This document shows positions 5,392 to 57,086 of a stretch of 64,000 nucleotides of DNA, in pieces. How positions within the stretch are numbered: the first letter of the stretch is position 1; every line of letters begins with the position of its first letter. The notes below the pieces were generated by a model, which did not search any database, was not told where the DNA came from, and worked only from the letters and a program-made list of their open reading frames with translations. Made by a program: the position numbers and the translations under genes. Source of the DNA: Dehalococcoidia bacterium UBA6627 (GTDB lineage: Bacteria > Chloroflexota > Dehalococcoidia > UBA2979); assembly GCA_002455955.1 (NCBI GenBank), contig DKLZ01000075.1, positions 9,837 to 73,836 on the forward strand, in the 5' to 3' direction.

Positions 5392-6348
5392 ATGACTGAC
5401 AACAAATCAGCTTTCGACTACCGACCTGAGATGAAGGCATGTGCTGAGGCGATCAATCTACGACCACCTCTGATTATTCAGCCAGAGGATCATTGGGTTG
5501 AGCTAAATGGCATTCGGTTACATTACCTTGACTGGGGCAACTCTCATCTGCCACATCTCTTGCTATTGCACGGTGGCAGTCTGACAGCGCACACGTGGGA
5601 TATGGCGGCATTATTGCTCCGAGAACGTTACCATATCGTGGCACCAGACCAACGCGGTCACGGTGACAGCGATGCAACCCCACTACAGCAATCCAAAGTC
5701 GATAACTATGAACTAATGCTTCAGGATACTGCTGCACTGATCGAATACCTCGGATACGACACCATCTCGCTCTGTGGTATGTCGATGGGAGCATTAAATG
5801 CCATCCGCTACACTGCCCACTGTCCTCAGCGATTGTCAGCGCTGGCCATTGTTGACGTCGGTCCAACAGTAATGCTCGAAGTCCGTATCGAGATGGAACA
5901 GTTTCGACATGAAACTGAAACCATGGTGGAGTTCGAAGACTTCGTAGAAAGAGCAATACGGTTTAACCCTCGACGAAAGCCCGAACATCTGCGTTACAGC
6001 CTGATACATTCACTCAAACGAGTCGAGGGCGGATGGACTTGGAAGCAACAGCAGCGAAGGAGCGAAAATCAAGTAACTGCTGAAGCTCACTGGAAGAGCG
6101 AGCGAGAAGAACGAGCTCGCTGGATGAGAGCCGATCTCGGCAAAATCAAAATACCTACCCTGCTAATCAGAGGAGAGAAAAGTAAGATGCTCTCGCCTGA
6201 AGGAGCACAAGATGCGGTTGCACTCCTCAAAGACGGTGAATTAGCGGTAATCAAAAACGCTGGACACTCCGTGCAGGGTGACAATCCTGCAGAGTTCTCC
6301 AAGATTTTGGACAGCTTCCTCACACGGCAGGGCATCCGAACTTCATGA
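5392..6348 (+). CDS. Alpha/beta-fold hydrolase
   Basis: Oxyanion LLLHGG, nucleophile elbow GMSMG, C-terminal NAGHSV His. Confidence 0.8.
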   Translation: MTDNKSAFDYRPEMKACAEAINLRPPLIIQPEDHWVELNGIRLHYLDWGNSHLPHLLLLHGGSLTAHTWDMAALLLRERYHIVAPDQRGHGDSDATPLQQSKVDNYELMLQDTAALIEYLGYDTISLCGMSMGALNAIRYTAHCPQRLSALAIVDVGPTVMLEVRIEMEQFRHETETMVEFEDFVERAIRFNPRRKPEHLRYSLIHSLKRVEGGWTWKQQQRRSENQVTAEAHWKSEREERARWMRADLGKIKIPTLLIRGEKSKMLSPEGAQDAVALLKDGELAVIKNAGHSVQGDNPAEFSKILDSFLTRQGIRTS

Positions 6349-6373
6349 GAATTTCAACCAACCGCGGAGTGTT

Positions 6374-7591
6374 ATGAACAAGAAAACCCACACTTCTGGT
6401 CCATTAACTGGGGTCAACGTACTCGACCTCACCCAAGGCATTGCTGGACCGTACTGTACAAAACTTCTCGCCGGGCTCGGAGCCAATGTCATTAAGGTTG
6501 AAGCTGCACCCAATGGAGATTCCACTCGTTCCCTCGGCCCATATGTGGATGAGGACGCACACCTCGAGAAAAGCATCCCTTTCCTCTATCTCAATACCGG
6601 AAAGCGCAGCAGTACACTAGACCTCAACTCAGCCGAAGCACCCAATCTGCTACGCGATCTAGCAGCAACCGTCGATTTACTGGTTGAAGACCTAGATCCG
6701 AAAACACGAAAGCAACTCGAAGTAAGTTATGACCATTATCGTGAGAATTGTCCTTCACTCGTTGTCGCTTCTGTCACTCATTTCGGACTCACCGGTCCCT
6801 ACGCGGACTATTTGGGAGAAGAAATTGTCGACCAAGCACTAAGCGGACATATGGCAATCACCGGAGAACCAGATCGTGAGCCACTCCGGATTGGCGGCGA
6901 TCTGTCGCAGTACGTCACAGGGCAAACTGCCTTCGTTGGAGCATTAATGGCCCTCTATCACTCAATGATCACTGGCGAAGGTCAACAAGTTGACTGTTCA
7001 GCACTCGAAGCATCAACAGACATTCTCGATGGGGAAGCCATCCTTTCGCTGACGCAACAACCACGTGTGCGGTGGGGTAACACGACTGCTGATAGTTTCC
7101 TGCGTGGGCGAGGCGGTCTATACGAAACAAATGACGGATGGATCGCACTCGGTCAAGTACCTGGCGGCTGGGATATGTTCGTCGAGATGATCGATGACGA
7201 TCGACTGCGTGTTCCTGAGTTAGCTGATCGTGCTACTCGAATAGCACGGAAGGATGAAATAGAGTCAATTGTTGAACCATGGTTGTTAGCACGATCCAAA
7301 ATCGACATTCACGAGGAGTCGCAGCGCAGGCGAAATGTAAGCGGATATGTAGCGCTCCCCGAGGACATCCTGTCCTCTAGGCATTTAGCGGAGCGTGAAT
7401 ACTTCGTCGATCTCGACCACCCTGTTGCCGGGAGCGCTCCTTACGCCGGTGCGCCATACCGTTTCCTCGGTCGAGATTGGTATTCCGAACGGGCTCCATT
7501 GCTTGGTGAGCATAACCGATCGATTTATGTCGACCACCTTGGTATGTCTCCAGCCATCTACCAACAACTGCTCGACAGCAACGTGATATAG
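6374..7591 (+). CDS. Family III CoA-transferase (CaiB/BaiF type), subtype A
   Basis: GVNVLDLTQGIAGPYCTKLLAGLGANVIKVE, NTGKRSSTLDL, candidate catalytic Asp in PLRIGGD. Start taken at MNKKTH; the track start at 6278 overlaps the upstream gene. Confidence 0.85.
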   Translation: MNKKTHTSGPLTGVNVLDLTQGIAGPYCTKLLAGLGANVIKVEAAPNGDSTRSLGPYVDEDAHLEKSIPFLYLNTGKRSSTLDLNSAEAPNLLRDLAATVDLLVEDLDPKTRKQLEVSYDHYRENCPSLVVASVTHFGLTGPYADYLGEEIVDQALSGHMAITGEPDREPLRIGGDLSQYVTGQTAFVGALMALYHSMITGEGQQVDCSALEASTDILDGEAILSLTQQPRVRWGNTTADSFLRGRGGLYETNDGWIALGQVPGGWDMFVEMIDDDRLRVPELADRATRIARKDEIESIVEPWLLARSKIDIHEESQRRRNVSGYVALPEDILSSRHLAEREYFVDLDHPVAGSAPYAGAPYRFLGRDWYSERAPLLGEHNRSIYVDHLGMSPAIYQQLLDSNVI

Positions 7592-7603
7592 GAGGGTTCC
7601 GCA

Positions 7604-8875
7604 ATGCCAAGCACAATGCTGAGCGGATTGCGCGTTCTGGATTTAAGCCAGGTCCGAGCCGCACCAAAGACTGCTCGCTGGCTAGCTGACGCTGGTGCTG
7701 AAGTCATCAAGTTAGAATCACTAAAGCGGCCTGATAGAGGACAGATGAAGGTTTCGTCAGCCGCTGATCTACCCATACCAGAGCAGAAGCAGCGAGAACA
7801 TAATCGCACTGCGGGAATGGGTACGGATCAATTACACCGGGACAAGCTAGGGCTTAGCATCGATCTCACTACTGATATCGGCAAAGAACTCTTCAAACGT
7901 CTAATCACGATCAGTGACGTCGTGCTCGAGAATTTTAGTGCTGGCGTCATGGATCGACTCAACCTTGGATATGACACTCTCTCTAAAATTCGTCCAGAGT
8001 TAATCATGATTTCGATGCCTGCATTCGGTTCGAGCGGACCCTATCGTGATCACGTTGGTTATGGCTGGGGCCTCGAACATCAGGGGGGTATCTCTGCTCG
8101 CACAGGCTACCTAGACGGGCCACCACTCCGTACGGGCACGGTGACACCAGATCCGCTCAACGGTCTCCACGGTGCGACTGCCGTCATGGCAGCGCTAGTT
8201 CATCGTGCACAGACAGGAGAAGGACAATTCATCGAACTCGCACACTGGGAATCGACATTGTCACTAATAGGAGACTGGCTGCTCGAACAGGCCTTCAATG
8301 ACGAATCAGAAGCGAGAATTGGCAACCGACATCCCATACATGCCCCACAGGGCTGCTACCGGTGTATTGGTAATGACGAATGGGTCACCATTTCCGTGAC
8401 AAACGGGAACGAATGGTCAGCCTTCTGCAAAACTATCGGGCGCCCTGATCTCGAAGCAAACGAACGTTTCACAAACGTTTCGCAACGGCGGGCCCATCAC
8501 GAAGAATTAGATGCAATCATCTCAACATGGACAAGCTCACGCACAAAGACCGAAGCAATGGAGATATTGCAACGAGCCGGCGTACCTGCCGGTGCTGTAC
8601 TCAGCAATGAAGAAGCGCTAACACAATCACAATTGACCGAACGCGGATTTCTTACTGAAGTCGAACACCCCGATGGAGTCATACATCCTTATATGAACGG
8701 TCCTTGGAAGTTTTCACGAGTGCCCCCGATGTCAGTCGAGCATCCTGCTCCCCTGTTAGGCGAACACAATGCTTACATCCTCGGTGATCTACTGGGGCTC
8801 TCCGAAACAGAACAACGGCGACTCGAAACGAGCGGAGTCACCGCCAACTTCTCGAGCAAACCACCAAAAGAGTAG
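7604..8875 (+). CDS. Family III CoA-transferase (CaiB/BaiF type), subtype B
   Basis: LRVLDLSQVRAAPKTARWLADAGAEVIKLE, candidate catalytic Asp in VTPDPLNGLHGATAVMAAL, C-terminal PLLGEHN. Confidence 0.85.
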   Translation: MPSTMLSGLRVLDLSQVRAAPKTARWLADAGAEVIKLESLKRPDRGQMKVSSAADLPIPEQKQREHNRTAGMGTDQLHRDKLGLSIDLTTDIGKELFKRLITISDVVLENFSAGVMDRLNLGYDTLSKIRPELIMISMPAFGSSGPYRDHVGYGWGLEHQGGISARTGYLDGPPLRTGTVTPDPLNGLHGATAVMAALVHRAQTGEGQFIELAHWESTLSLIGDWLLEQAFNDESEARIGNRHPIHAPQGCYRCIGNDEWVTISVTNGNEWSAFCKTIGRPDLEANERFTNVSQRRAHHEELDAIISTWTSSRTKTEAMEILQRAGVPAGAVLSNEEALTQSQLTERGFLTEVEHPDGVIHPYMNGPWKFSRVPPMSVEHPAPLLGEHNAYILGDLLGLSETEQRRLETSGVTANFSSKPPKE

Positions 8876-44277: not shown

Positions 44278-44425
44278 TCTCGAATACTAGGTCTGTTAAC
44301 AGTCTGGCAGTATCGTATTTCACGATATCGCAACCAGCCTTTTAGTCGACTAGCACAGGCGTAATTGTGTTAGTGAATCAGCGCACTGACATTCCTACAT
44401 CTGGAGCATACGAACTCCAGCAAAC

Positions 44426-46354
44426 GTGGACATCGCTATGACACTAACCCATCTCGAGATCTTAAACCAAGAATCATTTGGCGATTCCCAATCCTTTTGT
44501 GATACCGGCGAATATGAACGATTGGATGCAATCGCGCACTATGCTGTGAACCCAATCGATAGCGCTAACGCTGACATCGTCGACCTTGAACGAGCTGAAC
44601 GTGACTCAAACGGACAAGTCTTGTTCAGTGGCGACATCACAATTTTAAGACCGATAGATCCAGATCGAGGTAACCGTGCTGTGCTCCTCGAAGTACCGAA
44701 TCGTGGCAGCCGCCCAACCCTGAAAACTTTCCTATTGGGTGACCCACCAGACTCTTTCAAAGATATTCCAGCAGGGGACGGACTGCTCTTTCGACATGGC
44801 TGGTCGATCGCCTGGTGCGGTTGGCAATGGGACGTCCCGCGTGACAAAGGCAGAATGGGGTTCGAGGCTCCGCTCGTTCCACCGTCCGCACTTGAGAACC
44901 GCACGGATCAAATGCAACTTCGCTTTCAACCGAACGGGTCAGAGGACAAGATACCTCTCACCGACCATCATGTCGGAGCCATCGGAAATCACAATCCCAT
45001 CGTGCCAGACAATGTCGATCAAATAGATGCAATGCTGTTGGTTCGCGACGGCATCTACGGAGAGCCACAAATCATACCTCGCGAGCAATGGGGTTTTACC
45101 CATGAAGGAGCGTCTTTATATTGCAAACTCGGCTTTGACCCGGGACGGATATACGACGTTATCTACCGCCCCGAAAAATGCCAAGTAGTAGGCGCGGGAC
45201 TTCTTGCAGTACGTGACTTCGCAACATTTCTTAAACGTGACGATCCAATAAACCCATTGAGTGGCGCGGTCGAACACGTGATTGGACAAGGCCAAAGCCA
45301 ATGCGGCCGTTTCCTGCGCACGTATCTGAATCTCGGCTTGAATATCGACGAAGAAGGGCAACAAGCCTTCGACGGCGTTTTGATCCATATCGCTGGTGGA
45401 CGTCGAGGCGAATTCAACCACCGTTACGCACAGCCTTCAGTCCAACCCACTCCTAGCTTTGGACACCTGTTTCCATTTGCAGACAGCCCTCAAATCGACC
45501 CTGCAACAGGTAAGTTGGGCGGCCTACTGGATCGCCAAAGAAGCCGTGGCGGCGTCCCTCTCATTTTCCAGACTGATACTTCTTGCGAATACTGGCGATC
45601 AGATGCGAGTCTCGCTCACTCTGACCTCTCAACCGGGAAAGATGTTGAACCTCCTGAAGAAGTTCGTCGCTACCTATTTGCATCAACGCAACACGGTGCG
45701 GGTACAGCTGCTCTTGAAAACACAAGTGCGTTTGGTACTAGTGGTGCCAATCACTTCAACATCATCGATCATCGACCGTTAATGCGTGCGGCTCTGTTTA
45801 ACCTACTGGATTGGGTACGCGGAATGATGCCACCAAAAAGTGTCTTCCCGCGTTGGCGCGACGGTACCGCAGCAACACGCGAAGACATTGTGGCCAAGCT
45901 TGAGGAGATTACAAATCTCGCGCTACCGGATGTGAATGCCTGTCCTCGCATGGTTCCGCTTAACCTAGGATTAGATGCTGAGGATGGTATAGGTTACTTT
46001 CCTGCCTCTGTCGTCGGTGATGCTTATCCATCGTATGTCTCCGAAATCGATGCTGCCGGAAACGAAATTGGCGGTATTCGCCTCCCTGATATCGAAGTCC
46101 CTATTGGCACTCACACTGGCTTCAATCCGCGCCATCTGACAACGGGTGGTGTAGGGCAAATTCTTGATTACTTGGGCTCAACAACTCTCTTCGACCGTTC
46201 AGATACCCTTGAACTCTATCCGTCACGTGAGGCGTATCTCACAGCAGTCCGTGCAGCAGCAGAGCAGCTTAATCGCGATCGTTACCTATTAGCTGAGGAC
46301 ATCGAACTTTGTATCGTTAACGCAAGCAATCGCTACGATTTAGTCTTCAGCTAG
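44426..46354 (+). CDS. Large conserved hypothetical protein, putative alpha/beta-hydrolase-domain protein
   Basis: LLEVPNRGSR, GWSIAWCGWQWD, GQGQSQCGRFLRTYL (Ser-nucleophile-like), GGIRLPDIEVPIGTHTGFNPR. Family name is recalled, not verified. Confidence 0.5.
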   Translation: MDIAMTLTHLEILNQESFGDSQSFCDTGEYERLDAIAHYAVNPIDSANADIVDLERAERDSNGQVLFSGDITILRPIDPDRGNRAVLLEVPNRGSRPTLKTFLLGDPPDSFKDIPAGDGLLFRHGWSIAWCGWQWDVPRDKGRMGFEAPLVPPSALENRTDQMQLRFQPNGSEDKIPLTDHHVGAIGNHNPIVPDNVDQIDAMLLVRDGIYGEPQIIPREQWGFTHEGASLYCKLGFDPGRIYDVIYRPEKCQVVGAGLLAVRDFATFLKRDDPINPLSGAVEHVIGQGQSQCGRFLRTYLNLGLNIDEEGQQAFDGVLIHIAGGRRGEFNHRYAQPSVQPTPSFGHLFPFADSPQIDPATGKLGGLLDRQRSRGGVPLIFQTDTSCEYWRSDASLAHSDLSTGKDVEPPEEVRRYLFASTQHGAGTAALENTSAFGTSGANHFNIIDHRPLMRAALFNLLDWVRGMMPPKSVFPRWRDGTAATREDIVAKLEEITNLALPDVNACPRMVPLNLGLDAEDGIGYFPASVVGDAYPSYVSEIDAAGNEIGGIRLPDIEVPIGTHTGFNPRHLTTGGVGQILDYLGSTTLFDRSDTLELYPSREAYLTAVRAAAEQLNRDRYLLAEDIELCIVNASNRYDLVFS

Positions 46355-46376
46355 CGACAGCTTCGTAGAACCAATT

Positions 46377-47429
46377 TCAATCACTCCTTTGTAAGGATGT
46401 GGATGCGATCCAATCTGCCAATTCGCTAAAGGAATAACCGCATTCTTCCGACAAATAATCACTACCAATCAACTTCCAGAACACTGCCTCAACGTCAGAT
46501 TTCACCATCTCGTCAAGTACTACAACATACTGAGACTCGCTTCTCGTCTCACTAATTCGCCAACCATATCGTTTGAATAATCTTTCCGTTAATAACTTCA
46601 GATAGTCAGATGCCTCAATGAATATCGCGTTACGCGCTTCTTGATCACCGATAAATTGATCTGAGACCTCAATAATGTCGAATCTTCTTTTGAAACTGAT
46701 ATCTTCCGTGTTACCTGACAATATCGTTCGTGGTGACTCGGCTATATCGATACTCCACACCGTATCGCTTATTTTCTCAAAATGATCAACATCGTGAGTT
46801 GCTGAAACGATAGATATGCCACGATCAATTGCAAGTTTCTGTAATATTGATATAAGACTATTCTTTGATTTACTATCCAAATAAATAGTCGGTTCATCTA
46901 ACAACATAATCTGAGGTTCCTGCGCTAATGCTCTAGCAATAACCAACCGCTGCAATTCGCCATCTGACAATGTCTGTATGCTCCTATCCATGAGATAACC
47001 AACATTCACGAAATCAACGGCTGTATCGATTGCCTCCCTATCATGCTTCCGCAGAATTCCATTCCAACCGGTAAACGGATACCTACCCAGACTCACAAAC
47101 TTGTATCCACTCAGCATTATATTTTCTCGTGATACAGCACTCACGGTTGCGATTTGTTTCGCCTTATCTGATGACGTCACACTGTTGAATGCTGCACCAT
47201 TAAGATAAATCTGTCCCGCTAATGGTTTCTGAATTCCACCTAAAGTTCTAACTAATGTCGATTTACCGGAACCGTTATCACCGATTAAAGAGATGATTTC
47301 TCCGCTGTTAATACTGAGATCAATATCGCTGATTAAAGTGCGCCCTCCATTTCCAATAGCGAGTTGCTTCACCTCTAGTACTGTTCTATCGCTTTTGCGG
47401 TCAAAGGATGGTTTAACCATTCTCAACAC
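46377..47429 (-). CDS. ABC transporter ATP-binding protein (FecE/BtuD class) with ~100-aa C-terminal extension
   Basis: Walker A GDNGSGKSTL, signature LSDGELQRLVIARAL, Walker B MLLDEP. Confidence 0.85.
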   Translation of the reverse strand: MLRMVKPSFDRKSDRTVLEVKQLAIGNGGRTLISDIDLSINSGEIISLIGDNGSGKSTLVRTLGGIQKPLAGQIYLNGAAFNSVTSSDKAKQIATVSAVSRENIMLSGYKFVSLGRYPFTGWNGILRKHDREAIDTAVDFVNVGYLMDRSIQTLSDGELQRLVIARALAQEPQIMLLDEPTIYLDSKSKNSLISILQKLAIDRGISIVSATHDVDHFEKISDTVWSIDIAESPRTILSGNTEDISFKRRFDIIEVSDQFIGDQEARNAIFIEASDYLKLLTERLFKRYGWRISETRSESQYVVVLDEMVKSDVEAVFWKLIGSDYLSEECGYSFSELADWIASTSLQRSD

Positions 47430-47430
47430 C

Positions 47431-48519
47431 TCAAGCTATTTCGTTTTTTTGATATCTGATTAACACCCAAATCACGATAGGGGCACCGATAAGTGCGGTT
47501 ATCGCATTCAATGGCAAAACTGTATCTCGCCCCGGAAATTGGGCTACGATCTCAGAAAGTAACGCGATGATCGCACCAGTCATGATCGTTGCCGGGATGA
47601 GAACGAAATGATCTGATGATTTCATGATCATTCTTGAAATATGAGGCGCTGCTATGCCTAAAAATGCGATTGGTCCACAACAAGCTGTTACTGTTCCTGC
47701 ACAAATAGCCGCACTTGTAAGGGTAATAATTTTTACAAGCCGTACGTTGATGCCGATCGATCTTGCATAGTCTTCGCCAAACAGAATTGCATTCAGCGGT
47801 TTCGCACTTGCCATAGCAATCGTCGAACTCAGTATGAGCAGGGGGGCCGCCCACGTTAATCCACGCCATCCTGGAGCTCTAAATGAGCCGAATCCCCACG
47901 ATATATATCGCTGTATACTCTCCGGCTCCGCATATGCAATTAAGAGTGTGATTCCAGAAGTCAAAACGTAAGAAATCATCAATCCGATGATCAGTAGTAC
48001 ACCAACCGACCGCACTCGTTGCGCTACCAGTATGATGATTAAGAGAACTGCTGCAGCACCAAGTATTGCATTCAAGGTTGTTGCTGATGTAAATCCCCAA
48101 CCAAGGGATGAAGCAAATTCGGTTGCTGGTGCGGCATTGCTAATTAGCACTGTTAATGCGACACCCCAGGTAGCTCCTGCTGTGACCCCTAATACTGATG
48201 AATCAGCAACCGGGTTCCGAAACAGTGTCTGCATTTGTAGACCAGCTACACCCAGTGAACCTCCAACGATTATAGCTGTGATTGTCCGTGGGATTCTTAT
48301 TTCCCAAACGATGGTATTCCAAGCTTCATTACTGCTTTCATGCGCAAGAAGAATATTGTTTAGTTCTGAAATCGGAATTTCTACTGACCCAAGAGCGATC
48401 CCGAGCAGCACTAGCACTACAAGAATCGGGGCGCACAACAGAAATATGAAGTAAATATCGCGTGTTTTTTTGTAATCTCTGGAAATCAGAGCATCTTGTC
48501 TTGGGTCTGATAACGACAT
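47431..48519 (-). CDS. FecCD/BtuC-family ABC permease
   Basis: 362 aa, about 10 TM. Typical GAPIVIWVLIR C-terminus. Confidence 0.85.
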   Translation of the reverse strand: MSLSDPRQDALISRDYKKTRDIYFIFLLCAPILVVLVLLGIALGSVEIPISELNNILLAHESSNEAWNTIVWEIRIPRTITAIIVGGSLGVAGLQMQTLFRNPVADSSVLGVTAGATWGVALTVLISNAAPATEFASSLGWGFTSATTLNAILGAAAVLLIIILVAQRVRSVGVLLIIGLMISYVLTSGITLLIAYAEPESIQRYISWGFGSFRAPGWRGLTWAAPLLILSSTIAMASAKPLNAILFGEDYARSIGINVRLVKIITLTSAAICAGTVTACCGPIAFLGIAAPHISRMIMKSSDHFVLIPATIMTGAIIALLSEIVAQFPGRDTVLPLNAITALIGAPIVIWVLIRYQKNEIA

Positions 48520-48560
48520 GCTGAACTCATCGATAATTCGTTATTATCCGGCCGTTATTA

Positions 48561-49856
48561 TTATTCTGGTAGTCGTTTATACCATTCGATTTGATGGTCA
48601 TTTAATAGATCGGGATGTGTGATCTTTATCAGGTCCGCTAAGAGCAAGTCAGGTCGGGACGCGGCACGCTCGAAATAGTCATCCGCACCTTGTTCATTCA
48701 CCATGCGAGTGTGAGTCCATACGTTCGCATTCTTGATCGATTTCAACTTCCCGTATCGAGGATCTTCGTTCAAACCTTGGGCGATCGTTTTCCACTGTGC
48801 CGGGGCGTTAATCCAGATATCAGCAGAAGCACCATCAAGTAAGACAGCTTCTAAGTCCAGATGCAGCGATCCAGTTCCCGGAGTACTCTCCCAGATATAT
48901 CGAATATTCGCATCTCTAAGAAGATTCGCTATATAGGATGATCCTCCTGGTGCATAAAATGTCCCTTGAAACGCTGCACCTACTAGAGCTGTTGGTATCT
49001 CAGACGCTTTCGCAGCAATCGCAACGGTCTCGCTATATCGTTTAGCTATGTCTTCTATATAGGTTGTTGCGGCTGCTTCTTCATTCAGTAACACACCCGT
49101 AACCAACAACCATTCCGCTCGCCCGAGCGCTGATGTCTCTAACCAGTCCATCCAATGAACGACAGGAATATCAAGATCCATCAGCTTCGGATAGGAAGGA
49201 TCGGCGAACCCATTCGATAACAAGACATCTGGACCGGATTCAATCACAGCTTCAGTACCAACTTCAAAATTCCCTGCGAATTCCACTACATTGTTCTCAG
49301 ATATGTGCTGCAGCACTTCCGAAGATGAGATATAGGAAGTCTGAGCTACTCCGGTAATTTTCGACACAGATTCAAACTCAATAAATGATGGATATTGTGT
49401 TGTTGACGATAAAAAAGCAGATCGTATAGGTGTACTAATAATTGGCATGTCAATGTCAGGATCAGGAGCGCCGCATTTCACCAAAGCAAATGACTGCTTA
49501 TCAGTCATGTCAGTCTCATTAATCGTTAGTACTCTATAAGATTTATAATATTCTATAGAGAACCCACTCGCATATGAAACATCTGCCTTTACTGGAAAAT
49601 AATCATATCCACCATCAAATTTATTATCTGGTATACAGGAAGAATTAACATCTTCCTGATGCACTAAGGTACTTTCGCTTTGAATATCATTATTGTTAAC
49701 AACATTCTGAGATGATGGGGATGCTTCAGGCACCTGTACGACGAGGTTTTCGTCATCGTGATCAGCGCACCCAGCCATAACCAGCAAGCAAATAAAAACT
49801 GAGACCACCATCCGAAGATGGCATGCCGGAATTAAACATAGTAAATAGTGATTCAT
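48561..49856 (-). CDS. Periplasmic-binding-protein (BtuF/FhuD class) substrate-binding lipoprotein, unusually long (431 aa)
   Basis: Lipobox LVMAGC. Class III SBP-like core. First gene after the cobalamin riboswitch. Confidence 0.75.
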   Translation of the reverse strand: MNHYLLCLIPACHLRMVVSVFICLLVMAGCADHDDENLVVQVPEASPSSQNVVNNNDIQSESTLVHQEDVNSSCIPDNKFDGGYDYFPVKADVSYASGFSIEYYKSYRVLTINETDMTDKQSFALVKCGAPDPDIDMPIISTPIRSAFLSSTTQYPSFIEFESVSKITGVAQTSYISSSEVLQHISENNVVEFAGNFEVGTEAVIESGPDVLLSNGFADPSYPKLMDLDIPVVHWMDWLETSALGRAEWLLVTGVLLNEEAAATTYIEDIAKRYSETVAIAAKASEIPTALVGAAFQGTFYAPGGSSYIANLLRDANIRYIWESTPGTGSLHLDLEAVLLDGASADIWINAPAQWKTIAQGLNEDPRYGKLKSIKNANVWTHTRMVNEQGADDYFERAASRPDLLLADLIKITHPDLLNDHQIEWYKRLPE

Positions 49857-49903
49857 GGATTATCGTCCGCCCGTTTCCACGCGGTGTGGTTTATCGATAT
49901 GCA

Positions 49904-49992
49904 TTCAAGTAGGTCGACCTGACTGGCCAGCTAGATTGTTATCTGCTGGATCGACAGTTGCGGGACAGTATCGGGCTCTCACCGAATTTCGC
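49904..49992 (-). promoter_or_regulatory. Cobalamin riboswitch aptamer (compact)
   Basis: Minus strand reads TTCAAGT-CAGGCGAAATTCGGTGAGAGCCCGATACTGTCCCGCAACTGT-CGATCCAGC..GCTGG-CCAGTCAGGTCGACCT-ACTTGAA. It has a closing helix, a GGTG..CC hairpin, the CCCGCAACTGT core and a B12-box-like AGTCAGG..ACCT. Lies 48 nt upstream of the SBP ATG. Confidence 0.75.
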
Positions 49993-50241
49993 CTGACTTG
50001 AACAGTGCTAATGATATGTCATGATTGCGGCAACAACAAAGAGTCTTCCAAAGCCCTGAGTGAGCTGATCAGTCAAGCCATAGCAAATAATCGCAGCCGC
50101 TACTGGTTAGAGGGATCACGTCAAACGAATCCGAACAATCTTCAATATTAAGAGCTGTTACGAAACCGCGGATGAACATCATGCGAAGGTTTTGAAACCG
50201 TCCTTAAGGTCTAAAGGTATTCTGTTATCAAACAGAGATAG

Positions 50242-50664
50242 CTAAGCGGTAACTAAGGCAAGAATATCGTGAAGCGTCCCAGTCCACGGGAGTCCAATTG
50301 TCCTATAGCCTTCCATATCTCCTGTGACACGAACGTAATTACGTCGAAATTCTTCGCGGTCCGGACCATCAGCCTCCGCATTCGTCAGACGGGCGTACGG
50401 CAGAACTTTTTCGTACGGAACGGTGATTGTCACGTCAGCATCAGCAAGCACCCCGGCTCCCACCAGCACGGTCCCATTACTCACCACGACATGCCAGCCA
50501 AGACTTGATCCATCCGGGCTGAGATGCGCAGGAGGATCAGTGAATTCCTCACAAAATGATGACTCGATTCCATCTAGATCAAACCCTTCACAGGACTCAA
50601 CAATCGCCTGACGGGCGTACGAAATCCACTCACTGCTGGCAAATTCAACCTTGGCACTCATCAC
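50242..50664 (-). CDS. SCP2/sterol-carrier-like domain protein (tentative)
   Basis: Pattern GWHVVVSNGTVLVGAGVLADADVTITVPYEKVL...VRVTGDM resembles SCP2-type lipid-binding domains. Confidence 0.4.
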   Translation of the reverse strand: MMSAKVEFASSEWISYARQAIVESCEGFDLDGIESSFCEEFTDPPAHLSPDGSSLGWHVVVSNGTVLVGAGVLADADVTITVPYEKVLPYARLTNAEADGPDREEFRRNYVRVTGDMEGYRTIGLPWTGTLHDILALVTA

Positions 50665-51210
50665 ATCCTCCTTCAGAAATCAAAAGTGGCTCGGTGCTTC
50701 TCATCTTTCACTCAAAAGAAGATAGATTACGCATAACACAGCGAGTCAACCTACTTAGAACGCTTTATTGTAGGAATATCCTCAAAGAATTAACCACAAT
50801 AAACCGTCTCAGTGCTCCTGATCCGTGAATGAAGCCTCGCCTGCACCTTCCGAACCGTCCGAACCGGACGGCTTAAGATCCATCTCTCAACATCCAGGCT
50901 CTCCGGTATTTCCGCAGCAATTGGATCCTGTTCGAAGCTTCGTCCAGTTGTTGCGAATCGCAAGCCGGAGCTTTTCGTTGAATGAACCCTCAAAATTTTT
51001 CCAGTTAGCAAACAGTCCGCGAAATGATGGTCGTGATTCAACTGGTCTACACATAATGATGGCCTGACCTCGATCTCCTTTATTATTCAATGGAGTATCG
51101 TGCCTGCCCTCGCTCTAGTCGATTGCTCCAAAAATTTAGCAATCTGAAAGATACCTGACCAAATCTCATGAGCAGCTACCATGCACAGGTACCACCAAGG
51201 GGACAGCAAC

Positions 51211-53655
51211 ATGCTCGATGGAGTGCGAGTCGTAGATCTAAGTACTGACGTCGCAGCTGGGTACGCCGCAAAACTATTCGCGACCTATGGAGCTGATGTC
51301 ATCAAAGTGGAGGCACCAGAAGGTGATCCTACACGTCGTCTCTCACCAAGCGCCGATAGCGACCCGAATGCTGGCATTCTCTTTGCCTACGTCAACAGCG
51401 GCAAACGGAGCGCAGTCCTAGATATGGATGACGAATCGCAGCGCGCTTCCTTGATGCAACTGCTAGCAACTGCTGATGTGATCTTCGATTCTTCGACACC
51501 GGGAACACTCGCACAACGAGGTGTACACCTCACCGCAGTAGCAACCGAACATCCGGCCCTGATCGTTTGCTCGATCACTCCCTTCGGGCAAGACGGACCG
51601 CGGGCTCATTGGCACGCGACAGCACTCACAGCCTTTGCAGCTGGAGGCGAAATGGCGCTTTGCGGAGACGAAACTAAGCCGCCGCTGAAAACTGCAGGCC
51701 ATCAGGCATACTTCCAGTCCGGTCTCCATGGCTTCGCCGCAGCAAGTACCGCGCTTTTCGCCTCCAGAGAGAGTGGGATCGGCGAGTTACTGGACATCTC
51801 AATCCAAGAAGTACAAGCCTCCACACTCGAAGGAGCCGGGCCAGCAGCAATGGTAAGAGGGAGCGATTCGGAGCGAACCGGTAATTCACTCAGCGCAATG
51901 TGGAGAATCTATCCGTGCGCTGACGGATGGGTAGGACTGGCATCATTACCGCGCCAGCAACGAGCCGTATTCGAATGTATCGGGCACCCGGAGCTCGTGG
52001 TAGATAGTCGAGCATTTGTGACCGACACTGAAACTGACGCACTGAGAACGGCACTGATTACCGAGTGGACCACCCGGCACACCGCGAAAGAAATTTACGA
52101 AGCGGCCGGTCACCATCGGGCTCCTTTCTCATTGATCCTTGAGCCGCCTGAACTAATCAACTGGCAGCCTCTACGCGAGAACAATTTCTGGCAAGAGATC
52201 AAGCATCCAGTCTTGGAAAGATATGTGACCCCTTCTGGGCCAATCATGATCGATGGCAATCGCGGTAATGATCAGCGTGCACCGTTATTAGGAGAGCACA
52301 CCAGCGAAGTACTCAAGGAGATCACAAAATCTGAGGTTCGATCGCAAGTAAAGATGAGCCCGTCTAGCGCCGCCGAAATCCGCGGCCTCCTCGATGGTGT
52401 TCGAGTACTCGATCTCTCGGCCGTCTGGGCTGGACCCTACGCTACGCGATTCCTCGCCGATCATGGGGCTGAAGTAATTAAGATCGAAGGGCCGCAGTCA
52501 CCGGACGTTATTCGATTCCTGGGCGCTTACGGTAGTGACCCACTTATCTACAACAAGTCTGCCTACTTCAACGAGTACAACCGCAACAAAAAGAGTCTCA
52601 CTCTCGATTTCAAGAACTCCAAAGGAATCGAAGTCTTCAAACAACTCGTGCGCGACGCCGATGTAGTAATTGAAAACTGGAGTTCTGGTGTCGCCAGTCG
52701 GCTCGGTGTTGGTTATGACGATTTGCGTAAAATCAATCCTGATATCGTATTTGTCTCAATGCCAGGTTTCGGGCATGACGGTATCGAAGCTCAGCGTATC
52801 GGATATGGCCCGACTATCGAACAAATGGGCGGTCTCGTGGCACTTCAGGGATACGAAGGTGAATCGCCGCACAAGAGTGGAATTTCTTACGGCGACCCAA
52901 TTGCTGGAGTCACAGCTGCCGCCGCCGTAGCACTTGGATTACTGCGTCGCCGACAAACTGGAGTAGGTTGCTACGCGGTAGTCCCTCAGCGGGACATCAT
53001 CATCGGGTTAATCGGCGAGTACTTGATTGCAGACTCAATAAGACAACCACTACCGAAACGTATCGGTAATCGTGACTCATTATTCGCGCCACACGGTGTT
53101 TATCGAGCAAGAGATGATTCTGGGCGTGATCAAAAGGATTGGTCAGGTGATGTAATCAGGCATTTCAATGAGAATTGGGTCGCAATCGCCATTGACAGCG
53201 ATGAAACGTGGGAAGCATTGAAATCGGTGGTCGGTGACCCACGCCTCGACCGAGCAGAATATGAAACAATGGCTGGGCGCAAAGCAGCCGAAGCGGAAAT
53301 CGACGCAGTGCTAGCCGATTGGTTACGAGATCGCGAACAGACGGACGCTGCTGAGCAACTTCAAGAAGCTGGCATCTCAGCCTCTCCAGTACTCACACCA
53401 CTAATGCTTACTCGCGATGAGCATCTCCAGTCACGTAACTTTTATCTGAAATACAACCACAAGGATGCTGGGGAACATATAACCTCACGCCCCCCCTGGC
53501 GATTATCGCGTCGAACGGTCACCGACATACGACCTGCTCCTCGTTTTGGAGAGCACAATCAAGAAATACTCAGCTCACTTGCTGATATGGACGATGAACT
53601 TATCGAGAAGCTGTACGCTGAGGGAATCGTTTCCGACGTTCCTCTACAACCCTAA
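51211..53655 (+). CDS. Fused di-domain family III CoA-transferase (two CaiB/BaiF modules, 814 aa)
   Basis: N-half LDGVRVVDLSTDVAAGYAAKLFATYGADVIKVE...NSGKRSAVLD. C-half LLDGVRVLDLSAVWAGPYATRFLADHGAEVIKIE...YGDPIAGV. Both halves end with the (L)LGEHT / FGEHN pattern. Confidence 0.85.
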   Translation: MLDGVRVVDLSTDVAAGYAAKLFATYGADVIKVEAPEGDPTRRLSPSADSDPNAGILFAYVNSGKRSAVLDMDDESQRASLMQLLATADVIFDSSTPGTLAQRGVHLTAVATEHPALIVCSITPFGQDGPRAHWHATALTAFAAGGEMALCGDETKPPLKTAGHQAYFQSGLHGFAAASTALFASRESGIGELLDISIQEVQASTLEGAGPAAMVRGSDSERTGNSLSAMWRIYPCADGWVGLASLPRQQRAVFECIGHPELVVDSRAFVTDTETDALRTALITEWTTRHTAKEIYEAAGHHRAPFSLILEPPELINWQPLRENNFWQEIKHPVLERYVTPSGPIMIDGNRGNDQRAPLLGEHTSEVLKEITKSEVRSQVKMSPSSAAEIRGLLDGVRVLDLSAVWAGPYATRFLADHGAEVIKIEGPQSPDVIRFLGAYGSDPLIYNKSAYFNEYNRNKKSLTLDFKNSKGIEVFKQLVRDADVVIENWSSGVASRLGVGYDDLRKINPDIVFVSMPGFGHDGIEAQRIGYGPTIEQMGGLVALQGYEGESPHKSGISYGDPIAGVTAAAAVALGLLRRRQTGVGCYAVVPQRDIIIGLIGEYLIADSIRQPLPKRIGNRDSLFAPHGVYRARDDSGRDQKDWSGDVIRHFNENWVAIAIDSDETWEALKSVVGDPRLDRAEYETMAGRKAAEAEIDAVLADWLRDREQTDAAEQLQEAGISASPVLTPLMLTRDEHLQSRNFYLKYNHKDAGEHITSRPPWRLSRRTVTDIRPAPRFGEHNQEILSSLADMDDELIEKLYAEGIVSDVPLQP

Positions 53656-53724
53656 TGTTTGGAGCGTCCAACAGAGAGGAACGGCACAAGGCGGAGCCGA
53701 TAGTTGACCGCCGAGCCACCTGAT

Positions 53725-54705
53725 ATGGAATACACGACTTTGGGAAATACCGGTCTACACGTCAGTGTCGCAGGCCTCGGAGCTGGTGGATTCAGTCGAA
53801 TCGGACAGGGCACCGGGAAAACTGAGGCAGAATCAATCTCGATTGTGAGACAGTCCCTCGATCTGGGTGTGAACTTTATCGACACGGCTGCGAGCTATGG
53901 AACTGAGTCGATCATCGGTAAGGCGCTAAAAGGAATTGATCGAGACGCATTCGTGATCTCAACAAAAGCCACCGTCGGAAGCAAAAAATCAAATGGGGAT
54001 GGCGCCGACTCAGGTTTGCGCTCCCCGGAAAATGTGGTCGCGAGTCTCGACAACTCACTTCGAAATCTTGGGCTCGACTGTATAGATGTGTTCCATTTGC
54101 ATCGCGTATTGCCAGAGACCTACACATACGCACGGGATGTACTCGTACCAGCACTAGCTATCGAGCAACGTAAAGGAAAGTTCAAGTTCCTTGGCGTTAC
54201 AGAAGCACCGGAGGACAAACATCACGAGTCTCTAAATCAAGCAATCAACGAAGATTGCTACACCGTGATCATGGTGGCCTATTCCATGCTAAATCAGTCC
54301 GCTCGAACACAACTCTTTCAGAAGACACTCGATAAGGGAATCGGAGTTCTCATCATGTTCGCGGTTCGGCTCCTGTTCAGCGAACCTGGTCGATTAAACC
54401 GTGTGATCGGTGAACTAGTAGATCAGGGGCGGCTGCCAGCAGAGATTATGAACGATGGGGGCACTCTCGGATTCCTAATTCACGAAAACGGCGCCCTCAA
54501 CATAGTTGATGCGGCTTACCGTTATTGCCGGCATACGATTGGTACAGATGTAGTGCTATTTGGAACCGGTAATCCTGACCACGTTCAAGCGAACGTAGAA
54601 TCGATCCTGAGACCACCGCTTCCCGCAAAGGATGTCGAACGCCTCGAATCAATATTCGGGGCGCTCACAGGTATTGGGCTAGACAGACCTGGGAAGAGTT
54701 CTTGA
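53725..54705 (+). CDS. Aldo/keto reductase
   Basis: MEYTTLGNTGLHVSVAGLGAGG, FIDTAASYG, GKALKG, VFHLH. Confidence 0.85.
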   Translation: MEYTTLGNTGLHVSVAGLGAGGFSRIGQGTGKTEAESISIVRQSLDLGVNFIDTAASYGTESIIGKALKGIDRDAFVISTKATVGSKKSNGDGADSGLRSPENVVASLDNSLRNLGLDCIDVFHLHRVLPETYTYARDVLVPALAIEQRKGKFKFLGVTEAPEDKHHESLNQAINEDCYTVIMVAYSMLNQSARTQLFQKTLDKGIGVLIMFAVRLLFSEPGRLNRVIGELVDQGRLPAEIMNDGGTLGFLIHENGALNIVDAAYRYCRHTIGTDVVLFGTGNPDHVQANVESILRPPLPAKDVERLESIFGALTGIGLDRPGKSS

Positions 54706-55046
54706 TGCAATCGAGAGCAACGATCTAGACATCGACTAAACAAACGGCTCAGGACTTCAATTTTCAGCGTTGAAGAAAACCCGCCTCAGAATGTGCAGCG
54801 CCCCCTACTTCATTCAGTAGTCTCGCAGCATTACCACCCAGCCATCGATCTCTGACATGACGAAGTGGTACGTCAGGCATCTCCTGCACTGCAAGGGCAT
54901 ATGGAATCAGATTGTTCGTCACGAACAGCACAAGACCGCTCAATAATGAAGAGCCCCTGAGAGACCTGTTAGTGTGCTGATAACATCCTGAACGCTAGCA
55001 AACGATATGACAGTTAGCTGGTTGCGCCGCATCGAAAGGATTTCCC

Positions 55047-56240
55047 ATGATCACCCGCTTCTCCTCTCTATACGCTGGGCACGTCGACTTGGAAGATATG
55101 GGCCAAGAAGCAACACCAGCTAACGAACGACGCCTGCCGAACGAACATCTCGCGACAGTATTTTCCAAAACTGAAGCGATGGCCGTGTGCATGGACAAGA
55201 ATGGCTACGACACGCTGTGGTTGGCTGAACATCATTTTCAGCACGAAGGATACGAATGCATCCCCAATCTAATGATGATGGGTGTGCATTTGGCACACCT
55301 CACAGAAACTCTCAAGATTGGCTGTGGATTCAACGTTGCGCCAATGTGGCATCCACTTCGCCTAGCCGAAGATTATGCAACCGCAGACATACTCACGGGC
55401 GGAAGGATGGTCTTCGGGGTAGGTCGCGGTTACCACACACGCGAAGTTGAAAGTCTCGGTGGCCCAATGCTCGATCAGGACGAGAATCGTGATTATTTCG
55501 AGGAAGCAACGTCGGTCATCTTAAAAGCGTTCGAAAACGAGTCATTCTCACACAGTGGCAAGTATTTTAACATCCCTCCGAACATTCCTTATCGTGGATA
55601 TGATCTTGAGGAACTCACTCTGGTTCCACGACCAACCCATCCGGTCGAGTGCTGGCAACCGATCGTAAGTGCAAGCGAACGTGGACTTGACTTCATGGTC
55701 AAGCACGGAATCAAAGGTGTTGTTGGAGGTGGTTCAGCGCTGATGTCAGAAGGGCCGGTAGCAGCGTATCGTGACGCGCTTGCTCGATCAGGAATCGAGT
55801 CTGATCTCGGTGAAGGACTATCTGTTGGTATCAACTTCCATTTGGCAGACACGAAAGAACAAGCGATCAAGGAAGCAACACCTTTTTACGAGGAACACAT
55901 CAAGATGTTCGCACCCCTCGGCTTCTTTAGAGGCCTGAACGATGAGCAACTAGACGCAGTTGCACAGCGAGGTGGTTGGACACAGGCTGGAGTGCCTGGA
56001 CTCGAAGAGGCATGTGAAAGTCGAAGCTGGTACTGCGGGCCGCCCGAAGGTTTTGTCGAGTATCTCCAAGAACTCAGTGAGAGCCTACCAGGACTTGAAA
56101 TGGTTAACGTTCAATCAAGCATGGGTACCCCTCAGCAAGTACTGATCGAGCAACTCGAGTGGTTCGCAAGCGCAGTAATGCCTTCGTTCAGTGAGACTGC
56201 TGAAAAAGGTATCGATCCAGTGACAGTGCAGTCGGCGTAA
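55047..56240 (+). CDS. LLM-class (luciferase-like) flavin-dependent monooxygenase/oxidoreductase
   Basis: GYDTLWLAEHHF, FGVGRGY. TIM-barrel length of 397 aa. Confidence 0.85.
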   Translation: MITRFSSLYAGHVDLEDMGQEATPANERRLPNEHLATVFSKTEAMAVCMDKNGYDTLWLAEHHFQHEGYECIPNLMMMGVHLAHLTETLKIGCGFNVAPMWHPLRLAEDYATADILTGGRMVFGVGRGYHTREVESLGGPMLDQDENRDYFEEATSVILKAFENESFSHSGKYFNIPPNIPYRGYDLEELTLVPRPTHPVECWQPIVSASERGLDFMVKHGIKGVVGGGSALMSEGPVAAYRDALARSGIESDLGEGLSVGINFHLADTKEQAIKEATPFYEEHIKMFAPLGFFRGLNDEQLDAVAQRGGWTQAGVPGLEEACESRSWYCGPPEGFVEYLQELSESLPGLEMVNVQSSMGTPQQVLIEQLEWFASAVMPSFSETAEKGIDPVTVQSA

Positions 56241-56333: not shown

Positions 56334-57086
56334 ATGAAATTAGAAGCAGTCAAGACAATCGGTGTACTCGGTGGCGGTGTGATGGGTGGCGGCATTGCCC
56401 AAGTCACGGCGCTCGCAGGATTTGACGTGGTGGTGCGCGATCTAACTCAGGAGCTAATTGACCAGACGCACGACGCAATCTTCGAAAGCCGCTGGGGCAT
56501 GAAACGAGCTGTCGAAATCGGAAAGCTCGAATTCGACCAAGTATCGGAAGCAATACCAAGAATTTCTTTCAGCACTGATGTCGCCGCTCTCTCGAGCTGT
56601 GATTTCATTATCGAAGCTGTGCCCGAGAAACTTGAACTAAAACAAAAAATCTTTCAAGAACTAGATGCGATTGTGAAACCAGAAGCGATCTTCACTTCTA
56701 ATACATCAGGATTCGTAATCGCAGATATCGCCCGTGATGTATCCGATTCACGCAAGACATTGTTCGCCGGTATGCATTTCTCGAATCCAGTACCCACGAT
56801 GAAGATGTGCGAAGTTATCTACACACCTGAGACCTCCGAGGAAACCATTGAAACAGTTAGTGGTGTGGGTGAACGGGCAGGGAAAGCGATCTCCATGGTG
56901 CAAGACGCACCAGGTACTTATGGATTCCTGCTCAACCGGATCTTTGCAGCTGCGAGACGTGAAGCAGATCTAATTGTCGATGCGGGAATTGCCTCTGAAG
57001 AGGACATCGACAAGGCAATGATCACAGGGCGGAACTGGCCTGCTGGCTTCTATGGAGACCGTGGTGGTATCGGGAAACAGTGGTAG
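56334..57086 (+). CDS. 3-hydroxyacyl-CoA (3-hydroxybutyryl-CoA) dehydrogenase family protein
   Basis: IGVLGGGVMGGGIAQV, EAVPEKLELKQKIF, SNTS, HFSNP, GFLLNR. Confidence 0.85.
   Translation: MKLEAVKTIGVLGGGVMGGGIAQVTALAGFDVVVRDLTQELIDQTHDAIFESRWGMKRAVEIGKLEFDQVSEAIPRISFSTDVAALSSCDFIIEAVPEKLELKQKIFQELDAIVKPEAIFTSNTSGFVIADIARDVSDSRKTLFAGMHFSNPVPTMKMCEVIYTPETSEETIETVSGVGERAGKAISMVQDAPGTYGFLLNRIFAAARREADLIVDAGIASEEDIDKAMITGRNWPAGFYGDRGGIGKQW

What the first reader, a model, noticed from the sequence alone, without database searches (positions are those of the whole stretch)
51211..53655. Fused di-domain CoA-transferase whose N-terminal module has His at the catalytic Asp position
This single 814-aa ORF contains two complete CaiB-like modules joined by a Ser-rich linker (SEVRSQVKMSPSSAAEIRG). 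In family III CoA-transferases an Asp (Asp169 in formyl-CoA transferase) forms the covalent acyl intermediate. It lies 15 residues before the Leu ending the conserved A/G-A-L. Hand alignment gives D in 6374 (PLRIGGDLSQYVTGQTAFVGAL), D in 7604 (TPDPLNGLHGATAVMAAL) and D in the C-half here (YGDPIAGVTAAAAVAL). The N-half has H instead (PLKTAGHQAYFQSGLHGFAAAS, codon 51700-51702). The fusion may therefore be a pseudo-heterodimer with one catalytic and one non-catalytic or altered site. Alternatively it may use a different chemistry.
Basis: partly seen in the sequence, partly recalled or inferred. Interest (0 to 1): 0.6.

Follow-up and report, generated by a model that had tools for sequence, protein, structure and literature searches.

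The report
Fused two-module CoA-transferase, one active site
This gene joins a non-catalytic and a catalytic copy of the CaiB-type CoA-transferase fold in one chain.

Summary
The 814-aa ORF at 51211-53655 is real and holds two complete family III CoA-transferase modules joined by a variable linker of about 20 residues.

- **C-module:** it keeps the catalytic Asp (Asp562). This residue is invariant in 121/121 close homologues and 140/141 diverse representatives.
- **N-module:** it has no Asp in that column. Pairwise, profile-profile and multiple alignments all place Tyr167 there, not His164.
- **Neighbouring gene at 6374:** It has Gln in that column.
- **Relatives:** the N-module is closest to chain A of benzylsuccinate CoA-transferase BbsEF, which has Tyr in this column. 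The C-module is closest to chain B, which carries the Asp178-CoA adduct.
- **This genome:** it holds 69 such modules. All 12 N-halves of fused genes that cover the column, and one member of each of 11 adjacent gene pairs, lack the Asp. Every partner has it.
- **N-module column:** it changes state at least 70 times on a 140-tip tree, so it is not under catalytic constraint.

The pseudo-heterodimer reading therefore holds, and a His-based chemistry does not. [quoted passage not shown] This scan has also noted the same layout in at least 73 other genomes. The protein is an ordinary new member of that class, and its substrate is unknown.

The parts
51211..53655 (+). Complete ORF: 814 aa plus stop, a two-module family III CoA-transferase
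   Evidence: Translation is open. Pfam PF02515 matches twice. More than 120 full-length homologous clusters of about 800-825 aa exist. The AF2 model has pLDDT 93.7 and pTM 0.95.
51197..51203 (+). Shine-Dalgarno-like AAGGGGA, 7 nt upstream of the ATG at 51211
   Evidence: Read directly from the sequence. The alternative upstream ATG at 51181 has no such motif. The homologue consensus starts at MLxGxRVVDLS.
51211..52326 (+). N-module (aa 1-372), alpha/BbsE-type, without a catalytic Asp
   Evidence: The best PDB match is 9fn0_A at 1.7e-43. It sits in the Asp-less clade with support 0.997.
51700..51702 (+). It lies 3 residues upstream of the catalytic column.
   Evidence: hhalign pairs His164 with Ser559. 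The column composition is H87/Q12/Y10/F6 of 121.
51709..51711 (+). Tyr167 codon, the residue actually in the catalytic Asp column of the N-module
   Evidence: Searches agree on this placement. BbsEF chain A has Tyr171 in the same column. The column is Y66/H22/A11/S7/G3/E3 among the listed residues in 121 homologues.
52327..52386 (+). Inter-module linker (aa 373-392), Ser-rich here and Pro/Ala-rich in homologues
   Evidence: The columns are variable and gapped. The pLDDT of the blocks covering the linker (residues 371-390) is 60-70.
52387..53652 (+). C-module (aa 393-814), beta/BbsF-type, catalytic
   Evidence: The best PDB match is 9fn0_B at 9e-47. Foldseek gives TM 0.93 to 9fn0_D/B. It sits in the Asp-bearing clade with support 0.964.
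52894..52896 (+). Asp562 codon, the predicted nucleophile at the N-terminus of helix 561-583
   Evidence: It aligns with Asp178 of 9fn0_B (the 9fol title reads 'D178-CoA adduct') and with the Asp of SUGCT. It is invariant in 121/121 and 140/141 sequences.
6251..7588 (+). It has Gln, not Asp, in the catalytic column. Coordinates are the stop-to-stop span.
   Evidence: C14_16087_17424. Alpha-clade membership.
7592..8872 (+). Coordinates are the stop-to-stop span.
   Evidence: C14_17428_18708. Beta-clade membership.

Best explanation
The gene encodes a single-chain version of a heteromeric (BbsEF-type) family III CoA-transferase.

- **Fold:** the two modules fold onto each other as the interlocked pseudo-dimer typical of the family.
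- **Working site:** only one of the two pseudo-symmetric sites is catalytic. Asp562, on the Rossmann domain of the C-module and capped by the small domain of the N-module, attacks the donor acyl-CoA. It forms the mixed anhydride and then the Asp-CoA thioester, and passes CoA to an acceptor carboxylate.
- **N-module:** it has Tyr167 where the nucleophile would be. It acts as the obligatory structural partner and supplies half of the substrate pocket.
- **Substrate:** unknown. It is probably one of the many carboxylic acids that SAR202-type Dehalococcoidia activate without ATP.

Shown here: the architecture, the column assignment, the conservation pattern and the phylogenetic placement. Inferred: the interlocked fold in detail, the single active site, the reaction and the donor.
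For: - Two PF02515 modules.
- N-half best matches 9fn0_A and C-half best matches 9fn0_B, the two different subunits of benzylsuccinate CoA-transferase. Foldseek TM is 0.93 and 0.83 respectively.
- The title of PDB 9fol names a D178-CoA adduct. Counting in the alignment puts D178 in chain B, opposite Asp562. Chain A has Tyr171 opposite Tyr167.
- hhalign of the N-profile against the C-profile pairs Tyr167 with Asp562.
- Asp562 is invariant in 121/121 and 140/141 sequences. The N-column is variable, with at least 70 parsimony changes on 140 tips.
- In the genome itself, all 12 fused N-halves that cover the column, and one gene of each of 11 adjacent pairs, lack Asp. All partners have it.
- The alpha and beta clades are well supported, at 0.997 and 0.964.
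- The AF2 model is confident as one body, with pTM 0.95.
- Both halves are equally conserved overall, so the N-module is under selection and is not decaying.
- Literature:
[quoted passage not shown] - SUGCT D212A is inactive (PMC10871334).
Against: - No coordinates of the model were available. The geometry at Tyr167/His164 and the interlocking itself were not inspected.
- Residues flanking the dead column (Gly163, Gln165, Gln169, Gly171, His173) are invariant or nearly so in the close family. That would also fit a retained ligand-binding role for the N-site.
- Among diverse representatives 13/141 have Asp and 35/141 have Glu in the N-column. Some relatives may therefore have two working sites.
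- The domain-wise conservation test gave only a weak trend among close homologues and no consistent trend in the diverse set.
- No biochemical data exist for this protein or its orthologues.
Confidence: 0.8

Rival explanations
1. The N-module site is not catalytic but is a conserved ligand-binding site. It might hold CoA, an acyl-CoA or the free acid, and so tune or regulate the C-module site or hold the second substrate.
For: The canonical VIKVE-P-GDPTR motif and invariant Arg42 and Lys65 are kept in the N-half. Gly163, Gln165, Gln169, Gly171 and His173 around the dead column are invariant or at least 95% conserved in 121 homologues. The N-half is as conserved overall as the C-half.
Against: The same helix is the central dimer-interface helix in the family (alpha7; PMC9196870), which explains its conservation without a ligand. 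These residues are not conserved across the wider alpha-type clade. No structure or binding data are available.
Confidence: 0.12
2. The N-module has a second active site with a different chemistry. His164 or Tyr167 would act as nucleophile or acid/base, for example in a lyase, racemase or hydrolase step coupled to CoA transfer, as in DddD.
For: DddD couples CoA transfer to a lyase step and PtmU4 to sulfur transfer (PMC6006322), so two-domain enzymes can have extra chemistry. His164 is present in 87/121 close homologues.
Against: Neither residue is conserved. Column 164 is H/Q/Y/F/N/D and column 167 is Y/H/A/S/G/E among orthologues at 51% identity or more. Both are nearly random in the wider family, with at least 70 changes on 140 tips. 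A catalytic residue would not vary like this. In DddD and PtmU4 the activity maps to the C-terminal-domain Asp.
Confidence: 0.05
3. The long ORF is an assembly or frameshift artefact that merges two adjacent CoA-transferase genes, like the pair at 6251-8872.
For: Adjacent alpha/beta gene pairs with short gaps are common in this genome.
Against: More than 120 independent clusters from many assemblies have the same 800-825 aa architecture. So do 141 diverse representatives and relatives in 186 species genomes. The linker is in frame and AF2 models the chain as one confident body.
Confidence: 0.01

Closest known systems
Succinyl-CoA:(R)-benzylsuccinate CoA-transferase BbsEF (PDB 9fn0, 9fol, 9fun)
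   Same: It has two different family III subunits. Chain A has Tyr in the catalytic column and chain B carries Asp178, which forms the CoA adduct. The N-half here is closest to chain A (1.7e-43, QAY motif shared). The C-half is closest to chain B (9e-47, TM 0.93). The module order here is chain-A-like then chain-B-like, which from memory matches the bbsE-bbsF gene order.
   Different: Here the two subunits are one polypeptide. Identity is only about 29%. No bbs-operon neighbours are present and the synteny is not conserved, so the substrate is not expected to be benzylsuccinate. The host is an aerobic-type marine Dehalococcoidia genome, not a toluene degrader.
[quoted passage not shown]
   Same: Tandem CoA_transf_3 domains in one chain with a poorly conserved linker. 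The conserved catalytic Asp lies in the C-terminal domain (PtmU4 Asp430; DddD Asp602 from my memory of Alcolombri 2014).
   Different: No DMSP-catabolic genes and no thioacid-cassette partner (a PtmA3-like acyl-CoA synthetase) lie next to it.
Homodimeric family III CoA-transferases (Frc/YfdW, CaiB, SUGCT, YfdE, Rv3272)
   Same: Same fold and the same Asp-at-helix-N-terminus nucleophile in the C-module.
   Different: Those are symmetric homodimers with two equivalent active sites. Here the two halves are diverged paralogues and only one keeps the Asp.

Membership tests
Family III (CaiB/BaiF/Frc) CoA-transferases, Pfam PF02515 | Sequence match to the family profile above the curated cut-off | tested here: met
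   582.6 bits against a 23.3-bit cut-off, with two full-length stretches. The genome search lists both halves, at 323.7 and 257.6 bits.
Family III (CaiB/BaiF/Frc) CoA-transferases, Pfam PF02515 | Catalytic Asp at the N-terminus of the central helix (Frc Asp169, SUGCT Asp212, BbsEF chain B Asp178) | tested here: met
   Met for the C-module: Asp562 is aligned, and helix 561-583 appears. Not met for the N-module, which has Tyr167 in the column.
Family III (CaiB/BaiF/Frc) CoA-transferases, Pfam PF02515 | Interlocked two-ring dimer fold | tested here: inconclusive
   The AF2 model has pTM 0.95 and each half superposes on BbsEF chains with TM 0.93 and 0.83. Model coordinates could not be inspected, so the interlocking was not seen directly.
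BbsEF-type heteromeric family III CoA-transferases | One Asp-less (chain A-type) and one Asp-bearing (chain B-type) protomer | tested here: met
   The tree places the N-half with 9fn0_A in an all-non-Asp clade (0.997) and the C-half with 9fn0_B in an all-Asp clade (0.964).
BbsEF-type heteromeric family III CoA-transferases | Orthology to BbsEF proper: bbs operon context and benzylsuccinate as substrate | tested here: not met
   The neighbours are an AKR, a luciferase-like monooxygenase, a 3-hydroxyacyl-CoA dehydrogenase, SDRs and an MFS transporter. Identity is about 29%. Its own genome holds closer BbsE/F-like sisters at C23:6973-9548.
[quoted passage not shown] | Tandem CoA-transferase domains in one chain, a variable linker, and the conserved Asp in the C-terminal domain | tested here: met
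   with the class definition read in PMC6006322.
DddD (DMSP CoA-transferase/lyase) | Close sequence relationship to characterised DddD and a DMSP-catabolic gene context | not tested
   No DddD sequence was at hand. None of 120 homologues is named DddD by any source. The neighbours show no DMSP genes.
PtmU4-type thioacid cassette | A PtmA3-like acyl-CoA synthetase within two genes | tested here: not met
   The Pfam scan of the neighbours shows no AMP-binding enzyme.

The most novel reading that the evidence does not exclude
The Asp-less N-module site is a retained, conserved ligand pocket rather than a mere structural relic. This would fit the invariant Gly163, Gln165 and Gln169 and the nearly invariant His173 in this orthologue group. 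Such a pocket could give the single-chain enzyme a second, non-covalent substrate or effector site, and the repeated loss and gain of a carboxylate in that column across the family would then tune the switch between one-site and two-site enzymes.
Probability: 0.12. Interest if true: 0.5.

Novelty: new member of a known kind. Interest (0 to 1): 0.22.

Why it matters
This is mainly a point of correct annotation. The many roughly 800-aa 'CaiB-like' genes of SAR202 and other Dehalococcoidia are single-chain alpha-beta heteromers with one nucleophile. Counting modules therefore overstates the number of active sites by about two-fold for the fused and paired genes.

The within-genome survey found 69 modules, 12 or more fusions and 11 alpha/beta pairs. 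The alpha and beta clades mirror each other in part, and a reverse-order fusion was also found. Together these show that the heteromer is ancient and that fusion probably arose more than once. This is a tidy but unsurprising piece of enzyme evolution. It does not reveal a substrate or a new chemistry.

Tried and rejected
- **BbsEF structure paper (9fn0/9fol):** searched for it to learn what the Asp-less subunit does. It was not in the library. Only the PDB titles were usable.
- **Alcolombri 2014 (DddD Asp602) and Ricagno 2003 (Frc):** not held.
- **NCBIfam:** every named equivalog hit is far below its cut-off, so no specificity can be assigned.
- **Gene context:** three close homologues (62-74% identity) and 80 species loci share no conserved neighbour. 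Only the generic LLM and SDR families recur, in 7-8 of 83 loci. The '12-kb catabolic cluster' is therefore not a conserved operon for this gene.
- **Domain-wise entropy test:** the live site's parts (C-large plus N-small) should be more conserved than the dead site's parts (N-large plus C-small). This gave a weak trend among close homologues and no consistent trend in the diverse set, so it is inconclusive.
- **Model coordinates:** they are not exposed to the Python box, so no distances around Tyr167 or His164 could be measured.
- **A conserved alternative acidic residue in the N-half:** the invariant Asp195 and Glu200 correspond to family-wide conserved positions (Glu200 pairs with Asp595 in the C-half, and Glu is also present in BbsEF chain A). 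They are not a replacement nucleophile.

Full report
**Observation**

The stretch 51211-53655 (+) translates without a stop to 814 residues.
- A longer frame from an ATG at 51181 exists.
- The ATG at 51211 is preceded by AAGGGGA at 51197-51203 with a 7-nt spacer.
- The consensus of 120 homologues begins exactly at this Met, so 51211 is the likely start.
- Pfam CoA_transf_3 matches twice, 582.6 bits in total.
- All named NCBIfam equivalogs (formyl-CoA transferase, succinate-glutarate, succinyl-CoA:mesaconate, CaiB and others) score far below their cut-offs.
- The protein is therefore a family III CoA-transferase of unassigned specificity.
In homologues this segment is Pro/Ala-rich, varies in length and is gapped. 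The two 10-residue blocks that cover it have the lowest pLDDT in the model, 60-70.

**Which residue sits in the catalytic column**

Three independent alignments agree.
- **Pairwise phmmer, C-half:** Asp562 (SGISYGDPIAG) lies opposite the Asp of SUGCT (gvamtDlatG) and opposite 'nytD' of 9fn0 chain B.
  - Counting along the printed alignment makes that residue Asp178.
  - The PDB title of 9fol reads 'D178-CoA adduct'.
  - SUGCT Asp212 is the conserved catalytic residue, and D212A is inactive (PMC10871334).
- **Pairwise phmmer, N-half:** the alignments to SUGCT (9br6, 9br7), 4ed9 and 10uh all put Tyr167 of PLKTAGHQAYFQSG opposite that Asp. The Gly at +4 is aligned in three of them; 10uh has Ala there.
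- **Profile-profile:** hhalign of the N-half profile against the C-half profile (121 sequences each) pairs Tyr167 with Asp562 and His164 with Ser559.
- **Multiple alignment:** a MAFFT alignment of all 67 modules of the genome plus three references gives the same column.

The residue replacing the nucleophile is Tyr167 (51709-51711). In PLRIGGDLSQYVTG the column holds Gln, and the Asp is at -3.

**What the two halves are**

- The best solved relative of the N-half is chain A of benzylsuccinate CoA-transferase BbsEF (9fn0_A, 1.7e-43). It also has Tyr in the column (apdnQAYrm against aghQAYfq).
- The best relative of the C-half is the other subunit, 9fn0_B (9e-47), the one that carries Asp178.
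- An AlphaFold2 model built on 120 homologues is confident as a single body, with mean pLDDT 93.7 and pTM 0.95. Helices 165-188 and 561-583 start at the two equivalent columns.
- Foldseek against the PDB ranks BbsEF chains D/B first (TM 0.93 on the target). Chain A comes at TM 0.83.
[quoted passage not shown] The helix that starts at the Asp lies in the centre of the dimer interface (PMC9196870).
- From this I infer that the live site is built from the C-module large domain plus the N-module small domain.

**Conservation**

| Set | Asp562 column | Column 167 (N-module) | Column 164 (N-module) |
|---|---|---|---|
| 121 homologues, 51-99% identity, all Chloroflexota/Dehalococcoidia where named | D 121/121 | Y66, H22, A11, S7, G3, E3 | H87, Q12, Y10, F6 |
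| 141 full-length representatives of 50%-identity clusters, 31-54% identity | D 140/141 | E35, Q23, S17, Y15, D13, A13, H7 and others | H only 23/141 |

- Among the 121 homologues both halves are equally conserved overall, with mean column entropy 1.24 against 1.21 bits.
- On a tree of the 140 N-halves in alpha-beta order (141 minus the reverse-order P0153), the column needs at least 70 parsimony changes. At least 9 of these involve Asp.
- That is the behaviour of a position released from catalytic constraint. It rules out a conserved His- or Tyr-based chemistry.
- One caveat applies. About a third of distant relatives carry Asp or Glu there, so some family members may have two working sites.

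**Survey within the genome**

The window lies in a 1.79-Mb, 86%-complete assembly that holds 69 PF02515 matches.
- All 12 N-halves of fused genes that reach the column lack Asp. They carry L, H, Y, F, Q, E, N, S, S, E, H and L.
- Every C-half has Asp.
- In each of 11 adjacent unfused pairs, one gene lacks Asp and its neighbour has it. The window's own pair at 6251-7588 and 7592-8872 is one of these.
- A maximum-likelihood tree of 66 modules resolves three groups:
  - an Asp-less clade of 21 tips that includes 9fn0_A and this N-half (support 0.997);
  - an Asp-bearing sister clade of 23 tips that includes 9fn0_B and this C-half (support 0.964);
  - the homodimer-type enzymes such as SUGCT outside both. 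The two clades together have support 0.996.
- Fused and unfused genes are interleaved in both clades, and several sub-clades mirror each other.
- Among the 141 representatives, 140 have the order alpha-beta and one (P0153) has beta-alpha.
- The heteromer is therefore old, and fusion probably happened more than once.

**Context and substrate**

- Downstream genes on the same strand encode an aldo/keto reductase, a luciferase-like monooxygenase and a short 3-hydroxyacyl-CoA dehydrogenase. Then come SDRs and an MFS transporter.
- None of these accompanies the gene in three close homologues.
- No substrate can be inferred.
- The expansion of CaiB/BaiF-type transferases in SAR202, and their top hits to the two-domain DddD, were noted by Landry et al. 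2017 (PMC5395668).

**Comparison with what is known**

- Dong et al. [quoted passage not shown] They counted 2,401 in 2017.
- They state that PtmU4 and its homologues have the conserved Asp in the C-terminal domain.
- They show that Asp430 variants lose 125-400-fold activity, and they name DddD as the other characterised member.
- Orthology to BbsEF proper is not supported. Identity is 29%, there is no bbs context, and closer BbsE/F-like sisters exist elsewhere in the genome.

**Earlier notes of this scan**

I reached this reading before consulting the scan's notes, and I recorded it. A word search of the notes then showed the same layout reported in at least 73 other genomes, with follow-ups reaching the same verdict. 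A note on this window had already seen that the pair at 6374-8875 mirrors the fused gene, which my tree confirms.

**Verdict**

- The pseudo-heterodimer interpretation is supported.
- The His-based alternative chemistry is not.
- The finding is an ordinary member of a known class.
- The one open point is why the residues flanking the dead column (Gly163, Gln165, Gln169, His173) are so well conserved in this orthologue group. Interface packing of the central helix is the simplest explanation. A retained ligand pocket is the less likely, more interesting one.

Noticed in passing
whole genome (G000), e.g. C34:6695-18717, C53:11991-27621, C45:12704-25654: A 1.79-Mb genome carries 69 CoA_transf_3 modules, including about 12-13 fused genes and 11 adjacent alpha/beta pairs, several of them in runs of 4-6 genes. 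This is an extreme paralogue expansion, typical of SAR202-like Dehalococcoidia.
   Followed up: partly
protein P0153 (803 aa, a representative): This two-module CoA-transferase has the reverse order. The Asp-bearing beta-type module comes first and the Asp-less alpha-type module second. It is the only such case among 141 representatives and points to an independent fusion.
   Followed up: partly
G000 C53:22475-24994 (-) and C48:22721-25099 (-): Both halves of these two fused genes fall outside the alpha/beta clades, among the homodimer-type enzymes. Their N-halves have Ser in the catalytic column. This looks like a separate origin of a one-Asp fusion.
   Followed up: no
window 56334-57086 (+): This 3-hydroxyacyl-CoA dehydrogenase ORF has only 250 aa. 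The C-terminal 3HCDH domain is matched for only 44 of 97 profile positions, so the protein may be truncated or unusually short.
   Followed up: no
window 44000-56000, both strands: No Rfam family reaches its gathering score here. That includes the leader of the minus-strand Peripla_BP_2/permease/ATPase importer operon (46377-49856), where another note of this scan mentions a riboswitch.
   Followed up: partly
window 51181 vs 51211: Two in-frame ATGs are present. At least one gene call used 51181 (824-aa cluster P0002). The Shine-Dalgarno-like motif and the homologue N-termini favour 51211.
   Followed up: yes
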